A stretch of DNA of 64,000 nucleotides from contig OZ024741.1 in the NCBI GenBank assembly GCA_964016885.1, forward strand, positions 155,558,001 to 155,622,000, given 5' to 3'. Below the pieces are notes generated by a model. The model was given only the letters and a program-made list of their open reading frames with translations. It had not been told where the DNA came from and did no database searches. Positions within the stretch are counted from its first letter, which is position 1; each line of letters opens with the position of its first letter. Origin of the DNA: Eledone cirrhosa. Taxonomy: Eukaryota. Shown here piece by piece: positions 930-44,300 of this stretch. The position numbers and the translations under genes were made by a program.

Positions 930-3900
930 TATTCATTTTTGGGGCCCTTTCTGCCTGTGTGTTTGTTTGTTTATGTGTGTTCGTATACAGCGTGGCGATA
1001 ATGCCACACAAGGGCCAAGTGGGATGGCGGATCCACAGATGGCTATGTAACCATACATTCGCCAATCCTCGATAAGAGTGTTTAAATATCGAACATAAAC
1101 AGTTCGAATAACGGTGAAATGGAGACTAGAACGTCATGTGACAGACTCTCACCCAACAGGTGCCCCCTGGCTCAGCAGCAGGAACCTGACTGTCAACCAA
1201 ATACTGCTGATGTTGGAGGAAGAAGAAGAAGGAAAGGGGCCAGAACCAACTGGACGAAAGAATTGAATAGAACTGTTATGCAATGCTACCTGAAAAGTAA
1301 CCCCAAGGAGAGGGGCTACAGGAGACGGATGCATAACATCTGGAACGAGATTGGTTTATTTAAATTAGATGAACAAAAATTGGCCGGGCAGGCTCGGGTA
1401 ATAAGAACTAATGGGTGGATAAGCGAGCTGGAACTGGAGGAACTGAGCAGAGAGAATGGCTTGGAGATGGCGGGTGTAGTATGCCAGACAAGCGAGCCGG
1501 TGGGAAATGAAGGTGAGGAGGTCCTGAGAACGGAGGAACCACCCGAAGCAGACAATGATCTGAATACTGAGATAAATAATACCTGGAACAGAGATACGGC
1601 CACTGAGGAGATGAATGCTGATGGGCTAGGACAAGATTCGGTTGACATCCTAAATTTAGTGGTAGATGAATTGAACAATGATAGTGGGAGACCTATGAAC
1701 CTAAGATTTGTAGACAGGAAAAAAGTTAAAAGAAACAACAGCTAAGGTAAACAAAGTCATCCCATACCTTGAGGCGAGGAGCCTTCACCAGTGCAACAAT
1801 ATCCTCAAAGCAACAGCAAATACGGTGAGGAAACTACTTGGTATAAAAGCGAGAGGAAACAACAGACAAGAAAGAGCAGAGCCGTGGTGGAAGAAGCGAC
1901 TGAGTGGGCAAATCGGGGAAATGAGAAATGACATAGGAAAGCTTGAGTCACTACTGAATGGGACACTAAAAAACATAGGCACTAAAAATAGACTGGAAAT
2001 AAAATACAAAACTAGGAGTAAAAAGCTAAATATTATCATAGAGGAATTGAAGCAACGCATTGTAGCAAAGAGTGCAAAAATCAGGCGATACGAGAACAGA
2101 GTCAGTCAGTATAAACAGAACCGCATGTTCGACAACAACCAGAAGATGCTGTTTGGACAGCTTGAGGGGAAAGAAAGAGGCAACGACTTGATCCCTGGGG
2201 CGGAACAAACTAAAACATTCTGGAGAGGAATATGGGAGCAGGATGTTAGACACAATGCCCAGGCAGGGTGGATTGAGACAGTACAGAGGGAGATCGGTGA
2301 GCAGGCACAACAACAGACTGATTTGAGTATCACAGTTGAAACTCTTAAGGGGCAAGCCAAAAAACTAACCAACTGGAAATCACCAGGCCCAGATGGTGTG
2401 CAGGGGTATTGGATTAAACATTTAACATCCCTCCACCCGAAGCTGACGGCCATGTTCAATGACTGCTTGGTGTCGGGTGAGGTGCCAGAGTGGTTGACAA
2501 AAGGTACCACAGTTCTGAAAATGAAAGACCGAATCAAGGGTAATGATGTTACCAACTATAGACCTATCACATGTCTGCCCGTAATGTGGAAACTGTTGAC
2601 GAGCATTGTGTCTGAGGAAATCTACCATCACCTCCACACAAACAACTTGTTACCGGACGATCAGAAAGGATGCCGAAAGAAGTCACGTGGTACAAAGGAC
2701 CAGTTGCTTATTGATAAGATGGTAATGGGGAATTGCAGGAGGAGACACACTGATCTTGCCATGGGATGGATAGACTACAGAAAGGCATTTGACATGGTGC
2801 CTCATTCCTGGATCACCAAAAGCCTGGAGATCTTCAGGGTGGCAGATAACATCAGACAGTTGCTAGGCAGGAGTATGGGGTCCTGGGAGACAGAGTTGAC
2901 ATCAACTGGAGTATCCTTGGGGAGCGTGAAGATCAAGAGAGGTATCTCCCAGGGAGATAGCCTGTCCCCTCTGTTGTTTGTCCTTGCCCTGATGCCCTTG
3001 ACCATTATGCTGCGAAAAGTGAGAGCAGGATACAAGTTGGGAAGGGGAGAGCTTACCATCAATCACCTCCTCTTCATGGACGATCTTAAGCTCTTCGGGA
3101 AAAGTGAGAAGGAGTTGGATGTGCTTGTTGACACTGTCCGTATTTTCAGCAGTGATATATGTATGCAGTTTGGTATTGGTAAATGTGGAGTCATTGTGAT
3201 GAAGAGGGGTAGGTTGAGCAGAAGTAACGGGATCCAGATACCAACAGGTGAGATGATAAAGGAAATTGACTCTGAGGAAGGATACAAGTATTTGGGCGTT
3301 CTGGAGGCTGATGGCATAATGAACAAAAAAATGAAGGAATTGTTAAGAACTGAATACATTCGGAGAGTAAGGAGCGTATTGAAGTCACATCTGAACAGCA
3401 GAAATGCCATAAGCGCAGTAAATTCCCGAGTGGTGTCTATTATTAGGTACAGTGCGGGAATTCTGAGATGGAATGTTGCTGAACAAAAAGAAATGGATAG
3501 GAAGACTAGGAAGCTATTGACTATCTACAATATGTTCCACAAGAGGAGTGATGCCGATAGACTCTACCTAAGGAGATCTGAGGGTGGAAGAGGTCTTATC
3601 AGCATAGAGGACTGTGTTCAGATGGAGAAAAACAACCTATACAAATACGTGACCTATAGTAAAGAGCCAATGCTCAGAACTGTACTGAAGGAGGGGACAG
3701 TAGGCCAGGGGATGTCCAAGGAGGAAATAACATCAAGGAGGAAGAGCAGCCTTAAGGGAAAATCCCTTCATAGTACCTTCTTTGAGAAAACTGAATTTAG
3801 AGATCCACAGACATGGAACTGGTTGAGAAGAGGAGACCTCAAAAAGGCTACAGAAGGAATGCTAATGGCTGCGCAGGAGCAGGCCCTCAAAACAAAGTGG

Positions 3901-4590
3901 CTGAAGCACCATATCTACAAGGAGGAGGCTAGCCCACTGTGCAGGATCTGTGGAGAGAGAGAGGAGACTGTGGCTCACAATGTGTCCGAGTGTAAACACC
4001 TAGCCCAGACCCACTATAAGGGCTGGAGACACGATGTGATGGGCAGGGTGATCCACTGGCACCTGTGCAAAGTAAACAATCTACCACATTCTGAGAAATG
4101 GTATGAGCATAGGCCAGAGGCGGTGATGGAGAACAATCAGGTGAAGGTGCTGTGGGATTTTAGGATACAGACGGACAAAAAACTGGAACACAATAGACCT
4201 GACCTGGTGGTTGTGGACAAAGAAAAAAGATCGTGCCTGATTGTGGATGTGGCCTGCCCGTTCGACACGAGAGTGCAAGAGAAGGAGAGGGAGAAAATTA
4301 ACCGATACCAGGACCTAAAGTGGGAGGTGAAAAGGATTTGGAACTGCCATGAAGTCAAAGTGATCCCGATTGTCATAGGCGCACTGGGGACTATCTCCAA
4401 AAGTTTCCAGGGATGGTTAAAGAAAATCGGCCCCTTCACGCTTTTTGGAACGCTTCAAAAGGCATGCTTGCTTGGAACAGCAAGAACCCTCCGATACGTC
4501 CTGAATATCTGAGGCTGCAGGTAGTGGCTTGATATTCAATCCAACGGACTTTCCAGTTAACCAACATCAATGACTGAGATTCAAGGAATA
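930..4590 (+). mobile_element. R4/Dong-type (RLE-clade) non-LTR retrotransposon, near full length; 5' boundary approximate
   Basis: RT motifs (YRPIT, WIDYRKAFD, QGDSLSP, LFMDD), CCHC knuckle CRICGEREETVAHNVSEC, RHD motif and PD-(D/E)xK RLE (RPDLVVVD..IVDVACP). A short 3' UTR runs into (TAA)n at about 4590-4637. Confidence 0.93.
1119..4512 (+). CDS. R4/Dong RT-ZnK-RLE polyprotein, about 1130 aa if a +1 frameshift at the A-run near 1719-1724 is corrected
   Basis: ORFs 1119-1745 and 1825-4512 join on removing one A: ...DRKKLKETTAKVNKVIPYL... No other stop. Confidence 0.88.
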
Positions 4591-27699: not shown

Positions 27700-30426
27700 T
27701 TTCTTTTTTCCACATTACTCCTTATAATGTGTTTTCTGTAGCATAACATCCTTTTGTAACTCGTGATTTTCTATATGATGTAACTGACACTGACAATAGT
27801 TATGTATCTATCTAAATGTTTTGAAGACAATGATTTTAATTACCTGTTGAAACATTCTGTATGCTCCGATGATACCAGACATCCGTCTGGAAGAAACAAT
27901 TGTCAGCAATTAAATACATTAAACTAAGATTTGATTGTTTTAATATTTTGTATCTCGGCTCTGTAATACATTTGATAATTTGCATTGAGCCTTTTCCTGG
28001 CTATTACTTAGTACGACCCTCCATATTTATAATTGTATATAAAACATATATAAGTATAAATATTATTATTATTACTAATATCTGCTCCTTCTTGTTGAGC
28101 TGACATATATAAAATTACCGGTATGTTGATCAAAGGTTATCTTTTTTTGTCTTTAAAGAACATACTGATCCCATCTAAAGATACATATTTTAAAACTACT
28201 GATTAATAGTGTCAATTCTTTTATTAAAAAAGTTAGATGGAGGGCTTTCCACTATGATAGGAACTGCGCTGTGAAAGATCAAGATGCACCTTCGTTTGAA
28301 TCATACGGTTTCAAAACATATAAAAGCCCACCATATAATTCATTACTGGACTCATTTGAAAATGACCTTGTGTCACTTGTTAAAAGAATTAAATACAGAA
28401 AACACTACAATAAGAAGAACAATTTTCTAAATAACCTAAATTCCACTATCAAACACTTTCATAAAAATAGGAATATCTTAGTACTAGCTGATAAATCTAA
28501 AAACATATATAGCCTAGATTATGATACATATAGAAAATGTATATATAATGAACACTATAAAAACTACAAAAAAAACATCTCATAAAAACCTAGACGATAT
28601 AAATATTGAAGCCCGTAGATTAATATGTAAATTAGGATTAGAGAGATATACTCAACCTTACACCCCTAATCCTTACACCCCTAATCCCCCACGATTCTCT
28701 CTGAAAGACTATAAGGAAGACTTCATCCCTCAATTAGAAGACCAATCCCTCAATTAGACTAATTTGCCCCTCCAGATCCGACATTGGTATTATTATTAAA
28801 AACATATTGGATAAAGTTATCCCCCAAATTAAACAAAAAATCCATTTTAACCTCTGGGAAAATACTAGCGAAGTAAGTGGTATTAATGAACATAATAATA
28901 AAAAATGTATCCAATTTGATATTAACTCTTACTACGCCTCTATTTCACCTATCCTTTTAAATAAAGCACTAATAATTGCCATGAATAATATTGAACTTAC
29001 TAGATCCCAGGTAGATATCATCCTTGCGTCGAGGAAAACCATAATTTTATTTGAAGACCAATTATGGACCAATTATGGACCCGCAAGAATACACCTAACA
29101 ACTTCGATATCACTATGGGATCTAGCGACTCGGCACAGGTCAAAGACTTAGTTGGTTGTATCACTTTCGATAAAAACACCAAAAATGTTAACTTCCTTGA
29201 TGTTACTTAGACTCTAAAACGTATATCCCTTATCATAAACCTAATGAAAAACTTTATTATGTTAATACCAACTCTAACCACCCCAAATCTGTATTGAGCT
29301 CAATCATTAAAGGGGTATCTAATAGAATTTCTAGTCTTTCTTACAACTATACTATATTTAACCGTAACTCCCAATACTATAATGAAGCCTTAGCTCATTC
29401 GGGCCATAGAGATAACATTAAATATAAACCTAAAACGTCATCTACTCATAAACAATCTGATATAATTTCACATAACATGACCATGAATAAAATTAAATAT
29501 AATCATAGTATTGAAAATCCCGATTCCAGTATCATAAAAAAGTTAACTCGCCCCACGACAATAATCCTAAGAAAACCACAGAAAGACAAATTATGTTAAA
29601 AACAAAAATATAAATAATACTGTACCTAACACCACACGAAACAATAATATAAATAACAATCATAAGAAGAATAGAAGAAGTAACACATTTTATAATTCTC
29701 CTTTCAACTTAAATGTCTCCACCAACATACCTAAAGCTTTCTTCTCTATTTTAGATAAAAACTTCACAATTAACCATTAATACCATAACCTATTTAACAA
29801 AATACTATTAAAATCTCTTACTCTACCACACCCAACATTGCAGACCATATAGCTAGCAGTAACACGAGGAAGATTAATAAATACTTCAAATTACACCAAG
29901 TTATGTCCAACATAGAAATAATCTTAACAATAACTCAGTACAGGACTATATTGCAAGTAATAGTAATAATACCAATAATAATGATATTAATACTTACCAT
30001 AATTTTAATACTAGAAGTATAAACAGTAATAACCGCTCAACTTCATACCCCCTTAACCAATATACTAGTTACCAAAGCAATTGTAATTGTAGACGTAATA
30101 GAACATACCCATTATGTAATAACTGACTTATTAAAGACATTATCTACTCCTGTACTGTTAGTGATAATTATATTTCGAAAGTTTATATAGGTTCAACATC
30201 GAATAGTTTTAAGACCCGATATAATTCCCACCGTAATTCATTTAGAAACCCTAGACTTAATAATGTAACTTCACTATCCACATACATACACTTATTACCA
30301 TCAAATAATATACCATATACCTTAGAATGGGGAGTAATATGATGATACCAGACATCCGTCTGGAAGAAACAATTGTCAGCAATTAAATGTATTAAACTAA
30401 GATTTGATTGTTTTAATATTTTGTAT
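27700..30426 (+). mobile_element. Decayed Naiad-like Penelope element with an 86-bp terminal direct repeat (27868-27953 = 30341-30426)
   Basis: LRWRAFHY, YGFKT, ADKS, IQFDINSYY, FLDVT, SNHP, CNC..VYIGST; many frameshifts; flanked by (TA)n. Confidence 0.88.
27862..27908 (+). ncRNA. Minimal hammerhead in the Naiad terminal repeat
   Basis: TGCT-CCGATGA-TA-CCAGAC atcc GTCTGG-AA-GAAA-CAATTG-TC-AGCA. Confidence 0.75.
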
Positions 30427-31638: not shown

Positions 31639-32050
31639 AGCTTCTGAAGATTACTTCTATCAAAATAAAAAAAACTTCCACCAAATTAAAGCAGAACCAG
31701 CCTGATATTGTTGTTTGGGATCACACATTGAACACGTGCTCTGTTGCAGAGATCAGCTTGCCCAGTTGATGTCAACGTTGTAAGAAGAATACAGGAGGAC
31801 ATCTACGGACCATTGATGAGGAGTTTGCGGATCCAGTATCCAAGATACACCTTCAGCTTCATACCCATCATTATTGGAGCTACAGGTTATATACCAACCC
31901 GCTTGGATCAAAGTATGACTGAACTTGGATTTGCGGACAAAGAGCAAAGCTCCCTAATTCATATGCTACAAATGGCTGACATAGATGGCACCTTCAAAGT
32001 TTGCAAAACAATCTTGCGATTTAAGGGATGACAATTTCTTTTCTTTTACA
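31635..32050 (+). pseudogene. RLE domain fragment of an RLE-clade LINE
   Basis: KQNQPDIVVWD..VAEIS(C)PVDVN..YGPL..FIPIIIGATG. Confidence 0.7.
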
Positions 32051-33216
32051 ACCTTGCCACCAGGAAGGTGGCCGGTCAAAAATGTACACGAAATTAAGAG
32101 AAAGAGAAACATATATACATATACACATATATATACATACGTACGTACATGCATACATGCGTACATTCATATATACATATAAAGATACATACATCTATTT
32201 ACCTATACATATTCATACATACATACAGAATTCTAAATAATTAACAATGTTAACCTCATAGAAAATATGATTGCGTCATCATGCTTATAAATAATTATAA
32301 ATAAATAATGATATATAATGTTGCTATATATGTAATGTTGCTATATATTTATTTAAACTATTAATTTCATTATTTTATATACAACACAATTCATATATAT
32401 ATCTGTCTGACTGTGTATGTAAGTGTGTCTGTACATGTGTGTGTGTGTGTGTGTGTATGTTTGTGTGTCTACCCAGTGTGTGTCTGTCTGTATCTATGTG
32501 TCCTTGTGTATGACTGTGTGTATGTCTCTATATCTCTGTGTCTGTGTTTATCGGTCTGTGTGTGTACCTGCATGTCTGCGTTCGTGTGTGTGTGTGTGTG
32601 TCTCGGTGTATGCGTCTGTCTGTGTTTGTGTGTCTCTGTGTATATCTGTGTATCTGTGTCGGGGACCCTGTGTCCGTTTGTGCGTTTGTTCTGTAGAGAA
32701 TAAAATGTTGAATTAACTTAAATAAAGCGTAAAATCAAATGCATTGGTGCAAGTTCGTATCATTCTACACATGAAAAATGTATTCCCTTTTCGTACATGT
32801 GTATGAATTGACTAGGAGAAACACCAAATGAAGAGCAATGATTCTGGTATGTATTTTATAATAACTTTAGATGGCGATTGTACAATACCAAACTTATGTG
32901 CTTACAAACGGCTCAACATAGTCTCCTCAAATGCACATTTATAACAAAAGCTATTACAAATTTCATTAATGAAGTTTCTCAAAAAATAATAAACAAACAA
33001 AAATGATATTTATTTGATGCTCCAATGATTGATCGTCAGTTACTCGAAGAAAGAGGAAAGAGAAAAAGAACTACGACACAACTCCAGGAAAACATTGCAA
33101 CACAAGACTAAATTAAAATATAATTGCAGTTTTCTAAATACAGCTTGTGATATTTTCAAAGGAAGTGCATGCATATTACTCATTTCATTGAGAGGTACTA
33201 AGATGCAATTATTCTA

Positions 33217-34725
33217 AAACACTTCAGCTGGATTGTCGAATGAGGGGTAGATGAAATCAATACATTCTTCCATAGTTGTTGCTTGGAGAACCATTTCTTT
33301 TGGCAAAATAATTTCCTCATCTTCAGTTTTTTTTTATCTTATCTTCTCCAATATCCAATAGTAACTGTGAATAGTCTCCTGCTCCCCCAGGAAATCGCAT
33401 GTTTGTCTCCAACTGAAATCTTTCGAAGCTTCGCCATAAGTAGGATTTTTTAATGCAGGCGTTTTCCACATCCGCTTCATTTCCTCTTTTCACTACCGGA
33501 AGAAGCTGACGGAAATCGCCACAGCAAATTGTCAAAATTCCACCGAATGCCTCATTGTTGTCGCAGAGTGAGGTCAACAGCTTCGAAGCTTTCCCCCCGA
33601 ATCATAGGACACTCATCCCAAACAATCAGCCTTGTATGCTGGAAGAGGTTTGCTGTCTTTGAGTTTTTATCAATGTTGCACAGACCATTTTCTTTCACTA
33701 CTATCGGTATTTTGAACCTAGAATGCGCTGTTCTTCCACCAGGCATCAGTGTTGCGGCAATGCCAGATGACGCAACAGCAATAGCCACGTCCCCGTTTCC
33801 CCTGACTTGAAAGAATTAAGTTAATCAGGAATGTCTTTCCTGTTCCACCTGGAGCGTCAATGAAAATCAATGCAGATGTGTTCGTCTCTAAACTGTTACA
33901 AATGAAGTCATACACGTGTTTTTATTCACTATTCAATAGAGGCCCCGTCTCCTCTACAAATCGTCGCTGCTCTTCTCTGCTGTATTGCAATTCATGCAAT
34001 AACTCCAAATTGCCAATATCCTGATTAGCAACAATAGTATTTGGCCTTGGCAAATTAAAGTCACTAAGACTTTTGCCCAGGTCATTAAGTTTGTCTTCAA
34101 AATACAGAAGACATTGATCATAATGTCTCTCGCTAATCAAAAGGTTAGAGTTTCTGGTAGCCCTTCTTTTTATTTGAAGGTAATCCTCAGACAGCGAATG
34201 CTTAAATCGAACCCATAAAGCACTGGAATTGTCAATTTCCGTATTTTTGAAGAGCACGATGAATAGATCTCTCGTGGCTTTGGGAAGCCTTGTTCGCTCA
34301 GCAGCTTCCAGAGTCTGCTGCCAATGATCATCCGATTGAAGCAAACCTTTCTCTCTGCAGACGTCTTTGAATAATGTCAGGAGTTCTCCATCACACATTT
34401 TCAAAGAGTTGAAGGATACTGGCCCTTTGACGTGATGCAGAAGGAGTCTTACATAATACAGGTCACCACTTCGTGGAGAAACAGTGTATACTCGTCCCAA
34501 AACGTTCGCCTCAAAAATCCCTGGATACTGCTCAACTGTTTTCCCCACCTTTCTCCTTTCCCATCTCTTATTACTCCAAGTGTAAAACTTTGGTCATCTT
34601 AGCCATGTTATTGTTTACTTTAACAGCAGCTTTGACCCGTAAGAAGATTTGATTTTCTTCAGGTAGATGAACTTGAAGGCGAAGTATGGCCTGTTCTCTC
34701 TCATGAATTGGAAATCCAAGTACCA
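33217..34725 (-). pseudogene. Helitron RepHel PIF1-like helicase fragment, frameshifted
   Basis: LGRVYTVSP..YYVRLLLHHVKGP, Walker A FIDAPGGTGKTF, VASSGIAATLMPGGRTAHSRFKIP, WDECPM, FGG..GDFRQLLPVV, LETNMR. Confidence 0.92.
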
Positions 34726-35627
34726 AGGCAACAAATATTCTGTTTAAAGAAAGCTGAAATATATATAGTCAGTGTACAATTAATTTGTATTTTTTAAGTC
34801 ATTTTCACTTAAGAATATTTTTTAAATATGCCAAATATTTTTTCCATCGTATTCACTCGAAAATAATAAAAAAAAAAATGAAGATATTGTCTATGTAAAT
34901 AAAGCTATTTGTGAAATCAAATTCACTTTAAAATATTTCTAAATAATTGAAATATTCTTTTTAACAAAAGCAAAAATATAAACACCTACTGTTTAACACC
35001 AACTGGTAATTTTCAGTGATATTCACTTAATGCTTTTCTGATAATTAAAATATCGTCTGTTTAAAGAAAGCTCAAATATAGATACTTGAAGTACAAACAA
35101 CTTGTAGTTTTGAAATCATATTCACTGAGAAATCACTGAAAAATCCTTTTTTAATAATTATTAAAAATATTTCTCGAATGATGAAAATAGTTTATGTCGA
35201 TTTACGTCAAACTTGTTTTATCCCCATTTCAGGGTTATATCACTTACAAGGCTATTTCTCCATTATACACCGTTTTGGCTATTTACGAAGGTATCCTACC
35301 CCCCCCCCCCCCACACACACATGTCTCTAAGTACGTAAACACATGCACTGGCACAGGTACACATACAGATACACAAGGTGGCAGTAGAACTGTGAAAGAG
35401 AGAGAAAGAAATAACGTTATGGATAGAGGGAGAGAGTTAAAATAAATAGAAGTTAAGGACGTTGACTCTTTCCCTATCTGTCATTCCCCCTCTCTCTCTC
35501 ATCTCTTTATTCTATCTCTCATCCCCTCACCCTCTCTCTTACTCTCTCTCACCCTCAGTCTCTCTTTTTCTCTCTCACCCTCACTCTCTCTTTCTCTCTC
35601 TCACCCTCACTCTCTCTTTCTCTCTCT

Positions 35628-36128
35628 GGCACTGGTTTGTTATTGTCTGTCAAAAGTGAAAGTTTGCGTCTCAGCAAGCGGTGAACCCCGCCTACAATTC
35701 CTCCCGTCGTTTATATCCGTAAAGTGACTAAAGATTAAGACAAATGTAATATATTTACGGTTAGGGTTAGGGTTAGTTTTTAGGGTTAGGGTTAGGGTTA
35801 GGGTTAGGGTTAGTTTTTAGGGTTAGGGTTAGGGCTAGTTTTTAGGGTTAGGGTTAGGGTTAGTTTTTAGGGTTAGGGTTATGGTTAGGGTTAGTTTTTA
35901 GGGTTAGGGTTAGGGTTAGTTTTTAGGGTTAGGCTTAGGGTTAGTTTTTTGGGTTAGGGTTAGGGTTAGGGACGAGCTAAACATACAGAGAATAAAAAAA
36001 TTGAACAGAGAAGAAAAATATTGTGATTTCACTTTACGGATATAAACGACGGGAGGAACTATAGGCAGGGTTCACCGCTTGCTGAGTCGCAAACTTTCAC
36101 TTTTGACAGACAATAACAAACCAGTGCC
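35628..36128. mobile_element. 501-bp MITE with 100-bp TIRs and an internal telomeric array
   Basis: TIRs 35628-35727 and 36029-36128 (4 mismatches by my alignment); termini GGCACTGG..CCAGTGCC; possible 8-bp TSD CTCTCTCT. Confidence 0.85.
35759..35971 (+). repeat. Interstitial telomeric repeat (TTAGGG)n with periodic TTAGTTT variants
   Basis: Read directly from the sequence. Confidence 0.95.
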
Positions 36129-36749
36129 CTCTCTCTCACCCTCACTCTCTCTTTCTCTCTCTCTTTCTCTCGCTCACCCTCAATCTCACTTTCTCTCTAT
36201 CACCATCAGTCTCTCTTTCTCCCTCTCACCCCCCTCTGGACAACCAAAAAACAAACGGATTATTTCTTTGATATTCATTATAAAATAAGATAAATTGAAT
36301 TTAGATGAATTCCTTGCTATCTTTGGAAAGTTGAAAATATTGTCCATGTGCGATTTACGCCAAACTTGTTTTATTCAGAGTATTTTCTCATTATGCAATG
36401 TTTTGGCTATTTACGAAGTTTTGCAGGGTTATGTTAATTTCGAGGTATTTTACCAGTATGCATCGTTGTGGCTATTTACGAAGGTACCCCCCAAAACCCG
36501 CGAATCTCGGGAACCCGGAGTCAGATTTTCGCGAAACTTGTTGTGAATGACTTTGTGACTATACTTTGAGACTTTGTGACTATACTTTGAAACGTGTTGT
36601 GAATGACTTTGTGACTATACTTTGAGACTTATACACATTGGATTGGAAGTATCGGTAGAGGGTCGGACGCCAAGCTTTGCAGCATAGAGTCAAAAGTAGA
36701 AATAATTATTATATATTTTATTATGTTGGCTTTTATTTCGGTAGAAGTG

Positions 36750-37070
36750 ATGATTCTTGTCCGGAGGGGATTTTGTTCGGTGGTGATTTTGTCCGTTGGG
36801 GCTTTGGCTGGTGGCAATTTTTCCATTGAGGTCCTTATCTGGTGAAATTCCTGTCCGGATGGGATTTTGTCTACTGGGGAATTTGACCGGTGGTTTTCTT
36901 ATACTGATAATTTCTTGTTTGCTAGCGTTTTGTTCGGTGGCAATTTTGTCTGATGGAGTTTTCGTCCAGTGGTGATAGGAATTTTGTCATGGTCGATTTT
37001 CTCTTGTGGATTTTTGTCCTGTGGGGTGAGTATTTTATACTGGGATTTATGTATTGTGGAGTTTCGTGAT
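36750..37070 (+). repeat. Degenerate ~15-bp tandem repeat (GG..GGATTTTGTCC-like)
   Basis: Recurring gattttgtcc / gattttgttc / aattttgtc motifs; lies next to a SINE head at 36638-36692. Confidence 0.55.
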
Positions 37071-37125
37071 GAACCATTCTATATTATATTTATGAGATAT
37101 GAATGTGATATGCTACATACATAAC

Positions 37126-37319
37126 TAATAATTGTTTCTACTTTTGGCACAAGGTCAGCAATTACTCAGTACATTACTGGTACTTTATTTTATCGACCCC
37201 GTAAGGATGAAAGACAAAGTTGACCTCAGCGGGATTTGAACTCAGAATGGAAAAGGCCGTAACTCTATGCGTCAAAGCATGACGTCCGACCCTCTACCGA
37301 TACTGCCAATCCACCGCCC
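37126..37319 (-). mobile_element. tRNA-derived SINE with TSD (ctacataactaataat-like on both sides)
   Basis: Main family; acataactaataat at about 37118 recurs as acataactaataat at 37321. Confidence 0.88.
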
Positions 37320-39015
37320 TACATAACTAATAATAGCATTAACATTTTAATAAGTGTAACGAAGCATCTGTAGAAAATGTACATACAAGTGGCAACACTG
37401 TTGATGTTTTAACACTTTTGACACCAAACCGCTCGAAACTACTACTGATTCTGCGATATAAAACTATTTGATTTAAGATATTTATATCTATCTAAAATCA
37501 TAATATTATGTAAAAGTTCGTAAGTTATGTTCCAGCCACCAGCTTAACACCAACAAAGTTAGTTATACTACTAAATTCCTCCAAATTATGGATTATTTTC
37601 CAAATGATTTGCAAACAATAGACAGGGTTAATAAACAATGTTTCTACATTCTCATTACAGGTCAGGTGCTGCTCCACATTTCTCACTGTAGTTGCGCTTA
37701 TATTAATAATGACTAATACATTTAAAAAACAGGATGTCATAAGTATATATATTCACTAAATTTTTTGTGGGGGTTTTCAGTCATTATATTGGGGACATGT
37801 TGGGGGGCTGCCTTAAAAGGAGTGAGTTGATCATATCGACACCAATACGTATCTTTCAAAGCCTGACACTCATTTTATTGATGTATTTCGGTTAAACCGG
37901 TAAAGCTTCGGATATAAACACCGACGCAAACACAAAAGTAAACAGGTTCACAGACACATCCGTAAAGGTAAACTCAGTCACATCAGGAAATCACCAGGAA
38001 GCCCGAATGAAACAGTTCTAGTCCTGTAGAAGCCATTTCTATATTAAATATTTATAATCTGCTATGTATTGAGTACCTTACTTACTGTGGTTACTACCGA
38101 TTGAACCCGGGATAAACTTATATATATATATATATAATTGTAATCTGAGTTTTACGAGTATTAATAATAATATTCGATTCGTTTGCAATTATGAAAACAA
38201 GCCTCACTTTTAAAGCCATGTCAGTAGAATGAGCCCCTCATTCATGCTCTTGTATTGTCATGCAAACAGAAGTGCAGACACTAATGTTTCTGGGTATTAC
38301 CCTTCATCAGTACAGTTCACTCTTCACCTGCCAACTGTCAGAGCTAGTGAAAATATATATTTTCTAAAATATACAGTGACTGATCGGCCTGATTTGCATA
38401 TTAGCAGACTGGCTTATCAGCCAGATCTGTATATTAGCAGATCCTCTGATCAGCCGGGTGTATGTATGGTAGACTTCGACATAGATTCCATCTAACAAAT
38501 TTCACTAAGACACGGGTCTATCAGTGGCTCAGTGGTTATAGTAGAAGATAGTTGACCACACACACACACACATATATATATTTATCTATATATATGTGCG
38601 TATGTCGGGGCGTATATATATATATATATATTTAAAATAAAATAGAGGTGTGACACACGAATTGTGATATATTAGTAAAAAGGAAAAGAAAATGCTGACA
38701 AATTTTTCCCAGTTTAATTAGGAATAAGTATAAATTAGTAATAAGTATTGGTTAGTATTCAGTTTTAGTTTTAACTTTTTACCGGTTGTCATTTCTAATG
38801 CTTTTCAAAAATAATTTTGAGATAGAGCGCTTGTGATGTTTGCTCTAAAAAATTGTCAGCATTTTCTTTTCCTTTTTACTAATATATATATATATAACTA
38901 ATAATAGCATTAACATTACACATATTACACAAATATGACCCTCCCCAAGTATAACAATATTTGTTTCGACACACGATTTCATATAAAAAACCTCGCTAAA
39001 CTAATTCATCGCCGC

Positions 39016-41396: not shown

Positions 41397-44300
41397 ATAT
41401 ATATATATATATATGAAAGCAGGGAGAAAGAGACGATTATTAGGAAGTAAAATATATTTTCTTCCCTTTTTATTTCTCTCTCTCTTTTTCTGTGTTAGAA
41501 AATGATTAAAACGAAATATTTTACTTTGTGTGAAGTGTTAAGGTATTAGTTGATTTATTTATTATTTAACAATGGCATTTATTTATCTATTTATATATTT
41601 AATAATTGTCTATTACCGGTTTCAGCATTTTTATGCATTATCAATTGATAGTGATATGTCTTGGTGTAGAATGGTGGTGTTGCACATGGTAAAGAAATGA
41701 TGCAGAAAGAATAATGTTATTTACATCAAGGTTTATGAAGTGAAAAGAATAAAGAAAAAAGAAAAAAGAAAAAAGAAAAAAGAAAAAAGAAAAAAGAAAA
41801 AAGAAAAAAGAAAAAAGAAAAAAGAAAAAAGAAAAAAGAAAAAAGAAAAAAGAAAAAAGATAAAAGAAAAAGGAAAAAAGAAAAAAGAAAAAAGAAAAAA
41901 GAAAAAAGAAAAAAGAAAAAAGAAAAAAGAAAAAAGAAAAAAGAAAAAAGAAAAAAGAAAAAAGAAAAAAGAAAAAAGAAAAAAGAAAAAAAGGAGCGTA
42001 ATGTGGAGCATAAAAAGTCAATGTGAAAGAAAAATTAATGTTATTTTACAGGCATAGTTCTTGAAGTTAAGCAGATCAAAATGTGTTAATATAGCAAGGG
42101 TGCTTAGTCGATCCATGATGGAGGCAAATGGTAGACTTTGGTTTGATATGATCTCCCTTTTTAGAGAATTAATATGCTCTTCTACGGTATCCCAAAGACA
42201 CAAAAGCGAAGTAATAGGTAGGGCCTGCAAGCAAGCCACAGACATTTACATCAATATAGCCCTTCCTGATGAGCTTAAATTAAGACCCATAATAGCAGGC
42301 ACCACCTGTGAAACCCATCGCCTAAGCAACTTCCTAGATATTCTGCTTAAACCTTTCCTAAAACACATAAAAAGCTTCATAAGGGACGACCTTGACATGT
42401 TCAACCACCTCCCAACAACACTCAATAATGAACTGACCCTACTAGTAACCTTTGATGTCATCAATTTATATTCCAATATCCCACACAACCTAGGCATAGA
42501 GGCAATACAATTCTGGCTTGAAAATTCCCCTAGTGAACTCCCACAGCACATCCCTAAAGAATTTGTGTTGGAGGGACTCAAATTAATCTTGGAAAACAAT
42601 TTCTTCGAATTCAATGCCAAATACTACAGACAGAAATCTGGGACTGCCATGGGCACGAAAGTAGCCCTTCATACGCCAACCTTGTCATGGGATATTTGGA
42701 AACAACTCTCTACCGCAAAGTTCTAGACAAATACGGCAACCACTTCTACTAACACATAGAAAAGAACTGGAAGAGATATCTGGACGACTGTTTCATCCAC
42801 TGGCATGAAAGTATAGATAGACTGTTTGAGTTTAAAACCCTTCTGAATGGACTCAACACAAACTTACAATTCACAATGGATTACAGCCATGAACAACTCC
42901 CTTTCCTCGATATCCTCATCAAGAAAACAAACAAAGAAATAGAAAGAAACATTTACTACAATCCCACAGACTCCAAACAATACCTCTAATTCAACTCGTG
43001 CCACCCTAGACACACCAAAATGGCAATTCTTTATAACCTAGCCAGAAGGATCTGCACAATAGTTTCAGATAAATACACATGCTACACACGACTAGAAGAA
43101 TTAAAAAACACACTTATCAGCAGAAACTACCTAACATCCCTAATCAACAATGGATTCCAACGTGCCCTAAAACTAGACATCCAGGAACTCAGACACCCCA
43201 AACGCAGGAATGAACATCAACAGAAAACTCTACCATACATATCCACACACAACCACCTCAACAATGAGGCATTCGACACCATCCTCCAGAACATTCCTTT
43301 ACTAAAAAGAGACCCAAGAATGAACAAAATCCTCCAAATACACAACCTCATAAAGAGCAAAAGACAACCTAAATTCATAAAAAACATCCTCACACAAGCC
43401 AAAATCCAACAAACCATCACAATAAACCCTACAGTAACAACATGCGGAAGGCCCAACCGTAGCATATGCATAAATCTAATAGAAGGTTCAACATTCCATT
43501 TTAAACAAGGACAACATTTCACAGTTAAACACAACTTTACATGTGCATCTGAAAACTTAATCTACGTTTTGACTTGCTCAGGTTGTCAAGAGCACTACAT
43601 AGGACAGACAAAAAAAAAGCCTCCGACAACGTATGACATCCATAAATCACAAATCAAAATACAGGAATACAGAAAGATTGCGTTTAGTGAACATATCGCC
43701 AATTGTGCACCCAACCAACATTCAAACTTTAAAATTTTCCCCATTTATAAATTCATAGACAACGCTACCTTCATCCATCGTACCAATAAGGAAACGTATT
43801 TCATTAACAAATTCCAACCTCTACTAAACTTCGGACCAAACTAAAACTGGAACAAACAATCGAACATTTACGAGAGTTCCCTCCCTCACACGCCATCTAT
43901 TCCTTTTTCTTAAATAAATTAAATATCATCCGGCATGAATTGCCTCCCCTGCATATTAATTCTCTAAAAAGGGAGATCATATCAAACCAAAGTCCACCAT
44001 TTGCCTCCATCATGGATCAACTAAGCACTCTTGCTATATTAACACATTTTGATCTGCTTAACTTCAAGAACTATGCCTGTAAAGAACATTATTTTTTCTT
44101 TCACATTGACTTTTTATGCTCCACATTACGCTCCCTTTTTTCTTTTTTCTTTTCTCTTTTTTCTTTTCACTTCATAAACCTTGTTTGTAAATAACATTAT
44201 TCTTTCCGCAACATTTCTTTAACACCACCATTCTACACCAATACATATCACTATCATTTGATAATGCATAAATATGTTGAAACCGGTAATAGACAATTAT

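What the first reader, a model, noticed from the sequence alone, without database searches (positions are those of the whole stretch)
35628..36128. Telomere-bearing MITE: (TTAGGG)n array between 100-bp TIRs
Seen: 100-bp TIRs with 4 mismatches, GG...CC termini and a possible 8-bp TSD in a (TC)n tract. The cargo is about 210 bp of TTAGGG punctuated every 2-5 units by TTAGTTT. Known: TTAGGG is the common metazoan and molluscan telomere repeat and forms G-quadruplexes. Inference: a young non-autonomous DNA transposon (termini and TSD would fit Merlin, not diagnostic) that spreads interstitial telomeric sequence and possible shelterin/G4 sites. The regular punctuation suggests amplification of a ~19-31 bp unit rather than telomerase addition.
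Basis: partly seen in the sequence, partly recalled or inferred. Interest (0 to 1): 0.7.

Follow-up and report, generated by a model that had tools for sequence, protein, structure and literature searches.

The report
Merlin mini-transposon growing telomere repeats
This 501-base piece is a gene-less remnant of a Merlin cut-and-paste transposon whose two-unit telomere-like seed likely grew by copying slips into a punctuated telomere-repeat run, and it sits inside a second, rolling-circle transposon that likely carried it to seven places, so some internal telomere-like sites in this genome would be transposon cargo rather than chromosome-fusion or repair scars.

Summary
In detail: 100-bp TIRs (96%), 24 perfect TTAGGG in 211 bp with seven 7-bp breaks. 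It is one of 40 elements or fragments of one family; 34 hold TTAGGG, 21 hold three or more units. The TSD is 8 bp (13 of 22 exact). Two kin copies carry a Merlin (PF12762) transposase and only a ~2-unit seed just behind its stop codon; the element is their ~1-kb internal deletion. Arrays never exceed 8 perfect units and carry 28-43 variant units per kb, whereas this genome's telomeres have none and runs up to 268: slippage, not telomerase elongation. The family is low-copy, about 3% diverged, has no intact transposase here, and supplies about 5 kb of repeats against 340 kb in two unrelated-flanked internal blocks. A sister module makes head-to-head arrays (19 of 19), mimicking fusion scars. 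No function is shown. The scan noted telomere-repeat Merlin-type MITEs before in other genomes (e1-9814440, e1-9537364).

The parts
35628..36128 (.). Non-autonomous Merlin deletion derivative (MITE-like), 501 bp
35628..35727 (+). Left TIR, 100 bp, GG terminus; inner part holds the motif CGTTTAT(A/T)TCC(A/G)TA found in 24 of 29 Merlin transposase loci and 0 of 28 Helitron control loci
35728..35760 (+). Left subterminal segment, as in transposase-bearing copy L068, ending in the first degenerate unit of the seed
35761..35971 (+). Punctuated TTAGGG array: 24 perfect units, seven 7-bp breaks; canonical G4 motifs at 35783-35803 and 35951-35971
35972..36023 (-). Remnant of the region 3' of the transposase stop codon of the parent element
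36020..36030 (.). Deletion joint that removed about 1 kb (the transposase gene); same joint seen in contigs of runs X2 and X3 (one sample)
36029..36128 (-). Right TIR, 100 bp
35620..35627 (+). Left copy of the 8-bp target-site duplication
36129..36136 (+). Right copy of the 8-bp target-site duplication
35490..36231 (.). CT-rich 26-bp minisatellite of the host Helitron, split by the insertion
33180..36542 (-). Truncated defective Helitron that hosts the element; both termini are missing in this copy, present in sister copies
33323..34593 (-). Broken Helitron Rep/helicase ORF pieces; PIF1 match (E 2.5e-18) in 33326-33601
34730..34736 (.). Joint of the Helitron deletion (2.4-3.4 kb longer in MITE-free copies, holding the Rep region) shared by MITE-bearing copies

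Best explanation
The element is an internal-deletion derivative of a Merlin DNA transposon whose short TTAGGG seed likely expanded in place by replication slippage and block duplication, and this copy was likely spread last as a passenger of a defective Helitron. Shown: Merlin parentage, 8-bp TSD, deletion joint, seed in transposase-bearing copies, copy-to-copy array variation, shared Helitron site. Inferred steps: (1) a ~1.3-kb Merlin carries about two telomere-like units between its TIR and the transposase stop; (2) about 1 kb is lost, likely in aborted gap repair after excision, leaving ends that a partner transposase moves in trans; (3) the seed grows and shrinks independently in each copy, 7-bp variant units arising early and being duplicated with their neighbours; (4) one copy inserts into the CT minisatellite of a Helitron, whose Rep-less derivative is copied by rolling circle to at least seven sites. 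The repeats are most likely tolerated cargo, with no role in transposition.
For: 40 elements or fragments catalogued; 34 of 40 hold TTAGGG at the same position, 21 hold 3 or more units, 10 hold 10 or more. TSD 8 bp exact in 13 of 22, within one mismatch in 16 of 22. L061 and L068 share arms and subterminal DNA at 91-96% and carry a transposase (PF12762, E 1.3e-12 for L061; D, D, E readable in L068) with one perfect unit plus partial ones. Joint 2966 to 3967 'skips 1000' in runs X2 and X3, one sample. Five arrays measured have 27.6-42.5 seven-base variants per kb and longest perfect run 2-8; 4 of 20 contig ends read are telomeres with 0 such variants and runs of 31-268. 19 of 21 arrays of three or more units carry a 7-bp variant; blocks holding rare variants are duplicated within 4 of 5 arrays examined, not in the window's own. 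Seven MITE-bearing Helitrons on seven contigs share site and orientation, lack a ~24-bp segment present in 27 of 28 MITE-free copies (for six of them; short form scored in L148), and six of six testable share the long deletion that 0 of 22 scorable MITE-free copies have (6 of 28 unscorable); their arrays hold 4-82 units. Sister Helitron copies have TC 5' ends after A (16 read, one truncated near the end) and hairpin plus CTAG then T 3' ends (8 of 9) with different flanks. Interstitial TTAGGG expands by slippage in yeast (PMC9272169, abstract).
Against: The substitution tree of 33 Helitron copies is star-like: six of seven carriers group loosely with low support and one (L146) falls elsewhere at 97%; single origin rests on shared indels and one diagnostic base (6 of 7 versus 0 of 22). 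Polarity seed-to-array rests on two broken transposase-bearing copies and on many short copies; shrinkage from a longer ancestor is not excluded. 6 of 22 elements lack a TSD within one mismatch. No intact partner transposase was found, so mobilisation in trans is inferred. Where the first two units came from is not shown. Searches score only the best candidates (40 of 130; 40 of 208), and 12 places were not fetched.
Confidence: 0.8

Rival explanations
1. Telomerase elongated the array, for instance by healing breaks left at or inside the element.
For: TTAGGG is this genome's telomere unit (4 of 20 ends). Telomerase-made short internal arrays at breaks are described in mammals (PMC2246262 one-line abstract; PMC8537989 passages). 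It remains a fair origin for the first two units.
Against: Arrays up to 1.45 kb have no perfect run above 8 and one variant unit per 25-35 bp, shared between copies; the array sits at one fixed position between intact flanks in 34 of 40 elements.
Confidence: 0.07
2. The ancestor captured a long degenerate piece of an internal or subtelomeric telomere-like satellite, and most copies have since lost units.
For: Two giant internal blocks (C1 about 300 kb, C2 40 kb) have the same build, TTAGGG broken by 7-bp units, mean run about 2.
Against: Their 7-bp unit is TTAGCTG (11-13 per kb), absent from family arrays (0 per kb), which use TTAGTTG and TTAGTTT; no family arm at the four edges read; transposase-bearing copies and the sister module have short seeds.
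Confidence: 0.08
3. The seed is kept because it works for the element or host: a binding site for telomere proteins or a G4 that protects ends, ends transcription or insulates.
For: The seed is shared with a sister module and a third captured form and with a second organism (run X5); on the transcript strand it lies about 100 bp behind the stop codon.
Against: 6 of 40 elements have no unit and 8 have one; variants break G4 motifs, only 7 of 40 have one; 28 of 29 related Merlin loci lack GGTTAGGG (the one hit is this MITE) and 0 of 30 others have a two-unit run.
Confidence: 0.05

Closest known systems
Merlin superfamily and its non-autonomous derivatives (Feschotte 2004 not read; as summarised in PMC8101967, passages, S1 table part 1 of 2)
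   Same: GG termini, TIR within 24-462 bp, 8-bp TSD, DDE_Tnp_IS1595 transposase in kin copies, internal tandem repeats that the authors suggest Merlin spreads as proto-satellites.
   Different: Here the repeat is the host's own telomere unit and can be followed from two units to 120. The paper has 0 occurrences of 'telomer'; its table gives periods only (one period-6 array of 39.5 copies in Merlin-1_Aplcal, sequence not shown, so a published precedent there is not excluded).
MITE-borne tandem repeats: Xstir and miDNA4 of Xenopus, (GTCY)n MITEs of lepidopterans, Pearl-type bivalve elements (PMC9659126, passages)
   Same: A repeat is born inside a non-autonomous TIR element, expands there and is dispersed with it.
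   Different: Those repeats are not telomeric; this family is low-copy and is relayed by a second transposon class.
Short interstitial telomeric sequences and fusion-type ITS (PMC6410037, PMC8537989, PMC6800518; passages)
   Same: A few to a hundred telomeric units at internal sites; transposition by mobile elements is listed as a possible source in PMC6410037.
   Different: Those are read as break-repair insertions or head-to-head fusions, and PMC8537989 concludes transposons did not spread vertebrate TERC-ITSs; here transposition is the shown route, and a sister module gives head-to-head arrays without fusion.
Telomere-bearing elements TBE1 of Oxytricha and Tel-1 of Tetrahymena (recalled, no call)
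   Same: DNA transposons with telomeric repeats.
   Different: As recalled, their repeats lie at the element termini; here they are internal, one-sided and variable.
Canonical Helitrons carrying nested or captured DNA (general knowledge; hairpin and rolling circle as in PMC9071541 passage)
   Same: TC...CTAG ends, 3' hairpin, A/T target, Rep and PIF1 helicase, passenger DNA copied along.
   Different: Nothing beyond the nature of the passenger.

Membership tests
Merlin superfamily | TIRs of 24-462 bp with terminal GG | tested here: met
   100-bp TIRs, GG...CC (definition)
Merlin superfamily | 8- or 9-bp TSD | tested here: met
   8 bp exact in 13 of 22, no exact 9 bp
Merlin superfamily | DDE_Tnp_IS1595 transposase in elements with the same ends | tested here: met
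   L061 PF12762 E 1.3e-12 beside a family TIR; L068 has both arms and D, D, E in a broken frame
Merlin superfamily | Intact active autonomous partner | tested here: not met
   L061 has Y at the first catalytic D, an 11-aa gap and no left arm; L068 is interrupted by insertions and a stop; no other catalogued element holds a whole ORF
MITE (non-autonomous TIR element) | Short, no coding capacity, TIRs and TSD | tested here: met
   501 bp, transposase deleted
MITE (non-autonomous TIR element) | High copy number and uniform size | tested here: not met
   40 elements in 3.0 Gb, 50 bp to over 1.6 kb, several independent deletion joints; better called a low-copy deletion derivative
Telomerase-made short ITS | Exact or almost exact repeats inserted at a unique break site | tested here: not met
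   Fixed position in a repeat family, 28-43 variant units per kb
Telomerase-made short ITS | Telomerase-RNA fragment beside the repeats | not testable with these tools
   No telomerase RNA sequence for this organism at hand; Rfam gave no match at gathering score in 33000-38000
Fusion-type ITS | Head-to-head arrays with subtelomeric flanks | tested here: not met
   Window array is one-directional; head-to-head form occurs only in the sister module inside a repeat
Helitron (host element) | 5' TC, 3' hairpin plus CTAG, insertion between A and T | tested here: met
   Seen in sister copies; the window copy is truncated at both ends
Helitron (host element) | Rep and PIF1 helicase domains | tested here: met
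   PIF1 in window and L067; Helitron_like_N in the segment that carriers have lost
Functional shelterin or G4 site | Binding of telomere proteins or G4 folding in vivo | not testable with these tools
   Only motif counts: 2 canonical G4 motifs in the window, 7 of 40 elements with any

The most novel reading that the evidence does not exclude
This Merlin clade is a seed factory for internal telomere sequence: its TIR-adjacent TTAGGG seed, relayed through Helitron, Tigger-like and larger Merlin hosts, is a main source of this genome's short internal arrays and of false head-to-head fusion signatures, and seeds of the same kind grew into the 40-300 kb punctuated internal blocks, possibly helped by telomere proteins that stall forks on them.
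Probability: 0.15. Interest if true: 0.72.

Novelty: new variant of a known kind. Interest (0 to 1): 0.43.

Why it matters
Internal telomere repeats are commonly read as scars of chromosome fusion or break repair, and transposition is listed only as a possibility in the review read (PMC6410037). This family gives a sequence-level case with the parent, the seed and a graded series from 0 to 120 units, and seven copies from one insertion that form a natural experiment on how such arrays grow. The sister module warns that head-to-head TTAGGG need not mark a fusion, which bears on karyotype reconstruction in this group. The effect is small in mass (about 5 kb) and no function is shown.

Tried and rejected
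Link to the giant internal blocks: no family arm at four edges, different 7-bp unit; none of the arm hits lies near them. Link to the 27-kb array at C2:411.29-411.32 Mb named in e1-10354291: array confirmed, no match to this family's arms. Segmental duplication for the seven Helitron copies: flanks beyond the Helitron end differ; it does explain the pair L077/L143 on C25, which share flanks. Substitution tree of Helitrons: unresolved. Known RNA family: three Rfam matches far below gathering score, none on the element. Seed as a general Merlin feature: absent from 58 of 59 other loci. Expression: no RNA holder listed. Intact partner in other runs: contigs too short to tell. Tigger identity of the sister host: Pfam gave no match on a 56-aa piece; the label rests on TA flanks, CAG termini and recalled likeness. 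Literature: 9 searches; 'Merlin+transposon+TTAGGG+terminal inverted repeats' and 'telomeric-like+transposon+TIRs+TTAGGG' gave 0 papers; the library lacks most subscription journals and Repbase, so absence from print is not established.

Full report
Observation. The element spans 35628-36128. Its arms are 100 nt and 96% complementary and begin GG and end CC. Between 35761 and 35971 lie 24 perfect TTAGGG units, longest run 5, broken by seven 7-bp units; the rest of the window has 0.19 such hexamers per kb. The window is C2:155.56-155.62 Mb of a 3.0-Gb genome, far from contig ends. Earlier scan notes call the genome octopus-like; I did not test that.

Family. A search with the left arm gave 55 matches from 40 scored of 130 candidates; pattern searches gave 27 exact ends and 55 arm cores. 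Every place in these lists was fetched, giving 40 elements or fragments in 39 loci. Of 40, 34 hold at least one TTAGGG, 21 at least three, 10 at least ten, 6 none; the largest holds 120 units in 1,449 bp; the spans add up to 5,312 bp. Of 32 loci outside the Helitron, 22 had both ends locatable: 13 have an exact 8-bp TSD, 16 within one mismatch, and none an exact one of 5-7 or 9-11 bp. In the window, removing the element and 8 bp restores the flanking 26-bp unit. Fifty arms lie 3.1% (median) from the majority base.

Parent. Crossing a PF12762 search (150 scored of 447) with the arm places gave two transposase-bearing kin. L061 (C13) has the right TIR, a 291-aa ORF matching DDE_Tnp_IS1595 (E 1.3e-12) and the post-array segment, but no left arm, Y for the first catalytic D and an 11-aa gap against a 74% identical relative. 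L068 (C3) has both arms and readable D, D and E, but is broken by a LINE-like insert, a stop and a nested copy of the MITE. Both carry only one perfect unit with partial neighbours, about 100 bp behind the stop codon. The window element matches their ends at 91-96% and lacks about 1 kb between them; the same joint appears in contigs of runs X2 and X3, one sample. Other copies have other joints, several at the array edge, including six fold-back forms with two left arms. By the definition in PMC8101967 (passages) this is a non-autonomous Merlin. With 40 copies of uneven size it is a low-copy derivative rather than a classic MITE burst, and no intact partner was found.

Host. The flanks of the window copy match those of six other copies over kilobases. 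That DNA, 33180-36542 here, holds a PIF1 remnant and belongs to a repeat with 858 first-look candidates. Sister copies end in TC after A and in a hairpin plus CTAG before T, with different outer flanks: a canonical Helitron. The seven carriers share site and orientation in a CT minisatellite, lack a ~24-bp segment that 27 of 28 MITE-free copies have, and six of six testable share a long deletion absent from all 22 scorable MITE-free copies, which removes the Rep region. One MITE-free copy (L136) has the short but not the long deletion, as a precursor lineage would. The substitution tree does not resolve the carriers and places one apart, so single origin rests on the indels. Carriers are about 5% apart and hold 4, 6, 10, 10, 15, 24 and 82 units.

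How the array grew. TTAGGG is the real telomere here: 4 of 20 contig ends read have 621-664 units in 4 kb, runs of 31-268 and no 7-bp variant. Five family arrays have 27.6-42.5 such variants per kb and runs of at most 8; 19 of 21 arrays of three or more units carry one; blocks with rare variants are duplicated in four of the five. Telomerase copies a fixed template (established knowledge), so it cannot have laid these arrays; slippage and unequal exchange can, and slippage expansion of interstitial TTAGGG is reported in yeast (PMC9272169, abstract). The origin of the first two units is open.

Wider setting. The inner 77 bp of the arm plus the seed also occur, inverted on both sides, in a ~300-bp module nested in a TA-flanked Tigger-like element; 19 of 19 copies read have head-to-head TTAGGG and CCCTAA runs. 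A half module sits in 13 of 20 further loci, two of them beside PF12762 matches. The inner motif is Merlin-native (24 of 29 Merlin loci, 0 of 28 controls); which family gave it to which is unresolved. Contigs of a second organism hold the arm, several deletion joints and TTAGGG-type sequence at the same place (one run). Two giant internal blocks, about 300 kb on C1 (edges read, interior sampled) and 40 kb on C2, are punctuated by a different 7-mer and have no family arm at their edges, so this family is a minor source by mass.

Known and new. Merlin elements with internal tandem repeats, and MITEs that breed and spread repeats, are described (PMC8101967, PMC9659126; passages). Transposition of telomeric repeats is listed as a possibility in PMC6410037 and judged not to apply to vertebrate TERC-ITSs in PMC8537989 (passages). 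Nine searches found no paper on a TTAGGG-bearing Merlin, within a library that lacks most subscription journals and Repbase. The scan's own notes report such MITEs in other genomes, unchecked here.

Noticed in passing
G000 C1:217,828,707-218,129,101 (L189-L195, L205-L211): About 300 kb of degenerate TTAGGG punctuated by TTAGCTG near the middle of a 443-Mb contig, followed by another satellite and an assembly gap; interior only sampled.
   Followed up: partly
G000 C2:251,167,639-251,207,555 (L199-L203): 40-kb block of the same punctuated type with a ~2.3-kb higher-order repeat; GC-rich repeat on one side. Similar blocks hit at C2:127.9, C3:151.1, C3:184.7, C8:23.7-23.9, C9:21.4-21.8, C10:54.1 and C13:26.6 Mb, mostly unread.
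   Followed up: partly
L221, L222, L225-L227, L233, L235, L238-L240, L243, L249, L254, L256, L257, L259, L265-L267: Sister fold-back module with head-to-head TTAGGG/CCCTAA inside a ~1.66-kb TA-flanked Tigger-like element; 19 of 19 copies mimic a telomere-fusion signature.
   Followed up: partly
L251-L253, L255, L258, L260-L264, L268-L270: A Tigger-like end plus half module and one TTAGGG unit captured in a larger repeat; Merlin transposase matches lie 0.6-0.8 kb away in L251 and L252.
   Followed up: partly
L062:1023-5399 (C1:320.87 Mb): A 4.4-kb family member with exact 8-bp TSD whose interior is an LTR-retrotransposon-like insert with a 1,019-aa open frame.
   Followed up: no
L067:2904-3815 (C3:15.91 Mb): An apparently intact 302-aa Merlin transposase of another family 630 bp from a family copy, flanked by inverted GGCCCTTAAAAGGGCC hairpins, as in note e1-9530552.
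   Followed up: no
L064 and L066: Minimal 50- and 53-bp family members made of TIR tips only, with 8-bp TSD (exact; one mismatch).
   Followed up: partly
window 36639-37313: A second inverted-repeat pair (52 nt, 90%) around TTTTGTCCG-type repeats; the 37126-37313 part is a very common repeat in fetched loci.
   Followed up: no
window 41743-41992: 250-bp (AAAAGAA)n array, 97% matches.
   Followed up: no
window 28169-29599 and 31732-32031: Broken retroelement-like ORF pieces on the + strand.
   Followed up: no
L074:1470-1496 (C9:56.29 Mb): A family copy inserted directly behind a short separate telomere-like run with a TTAGCTT unit.
   Followed up: no
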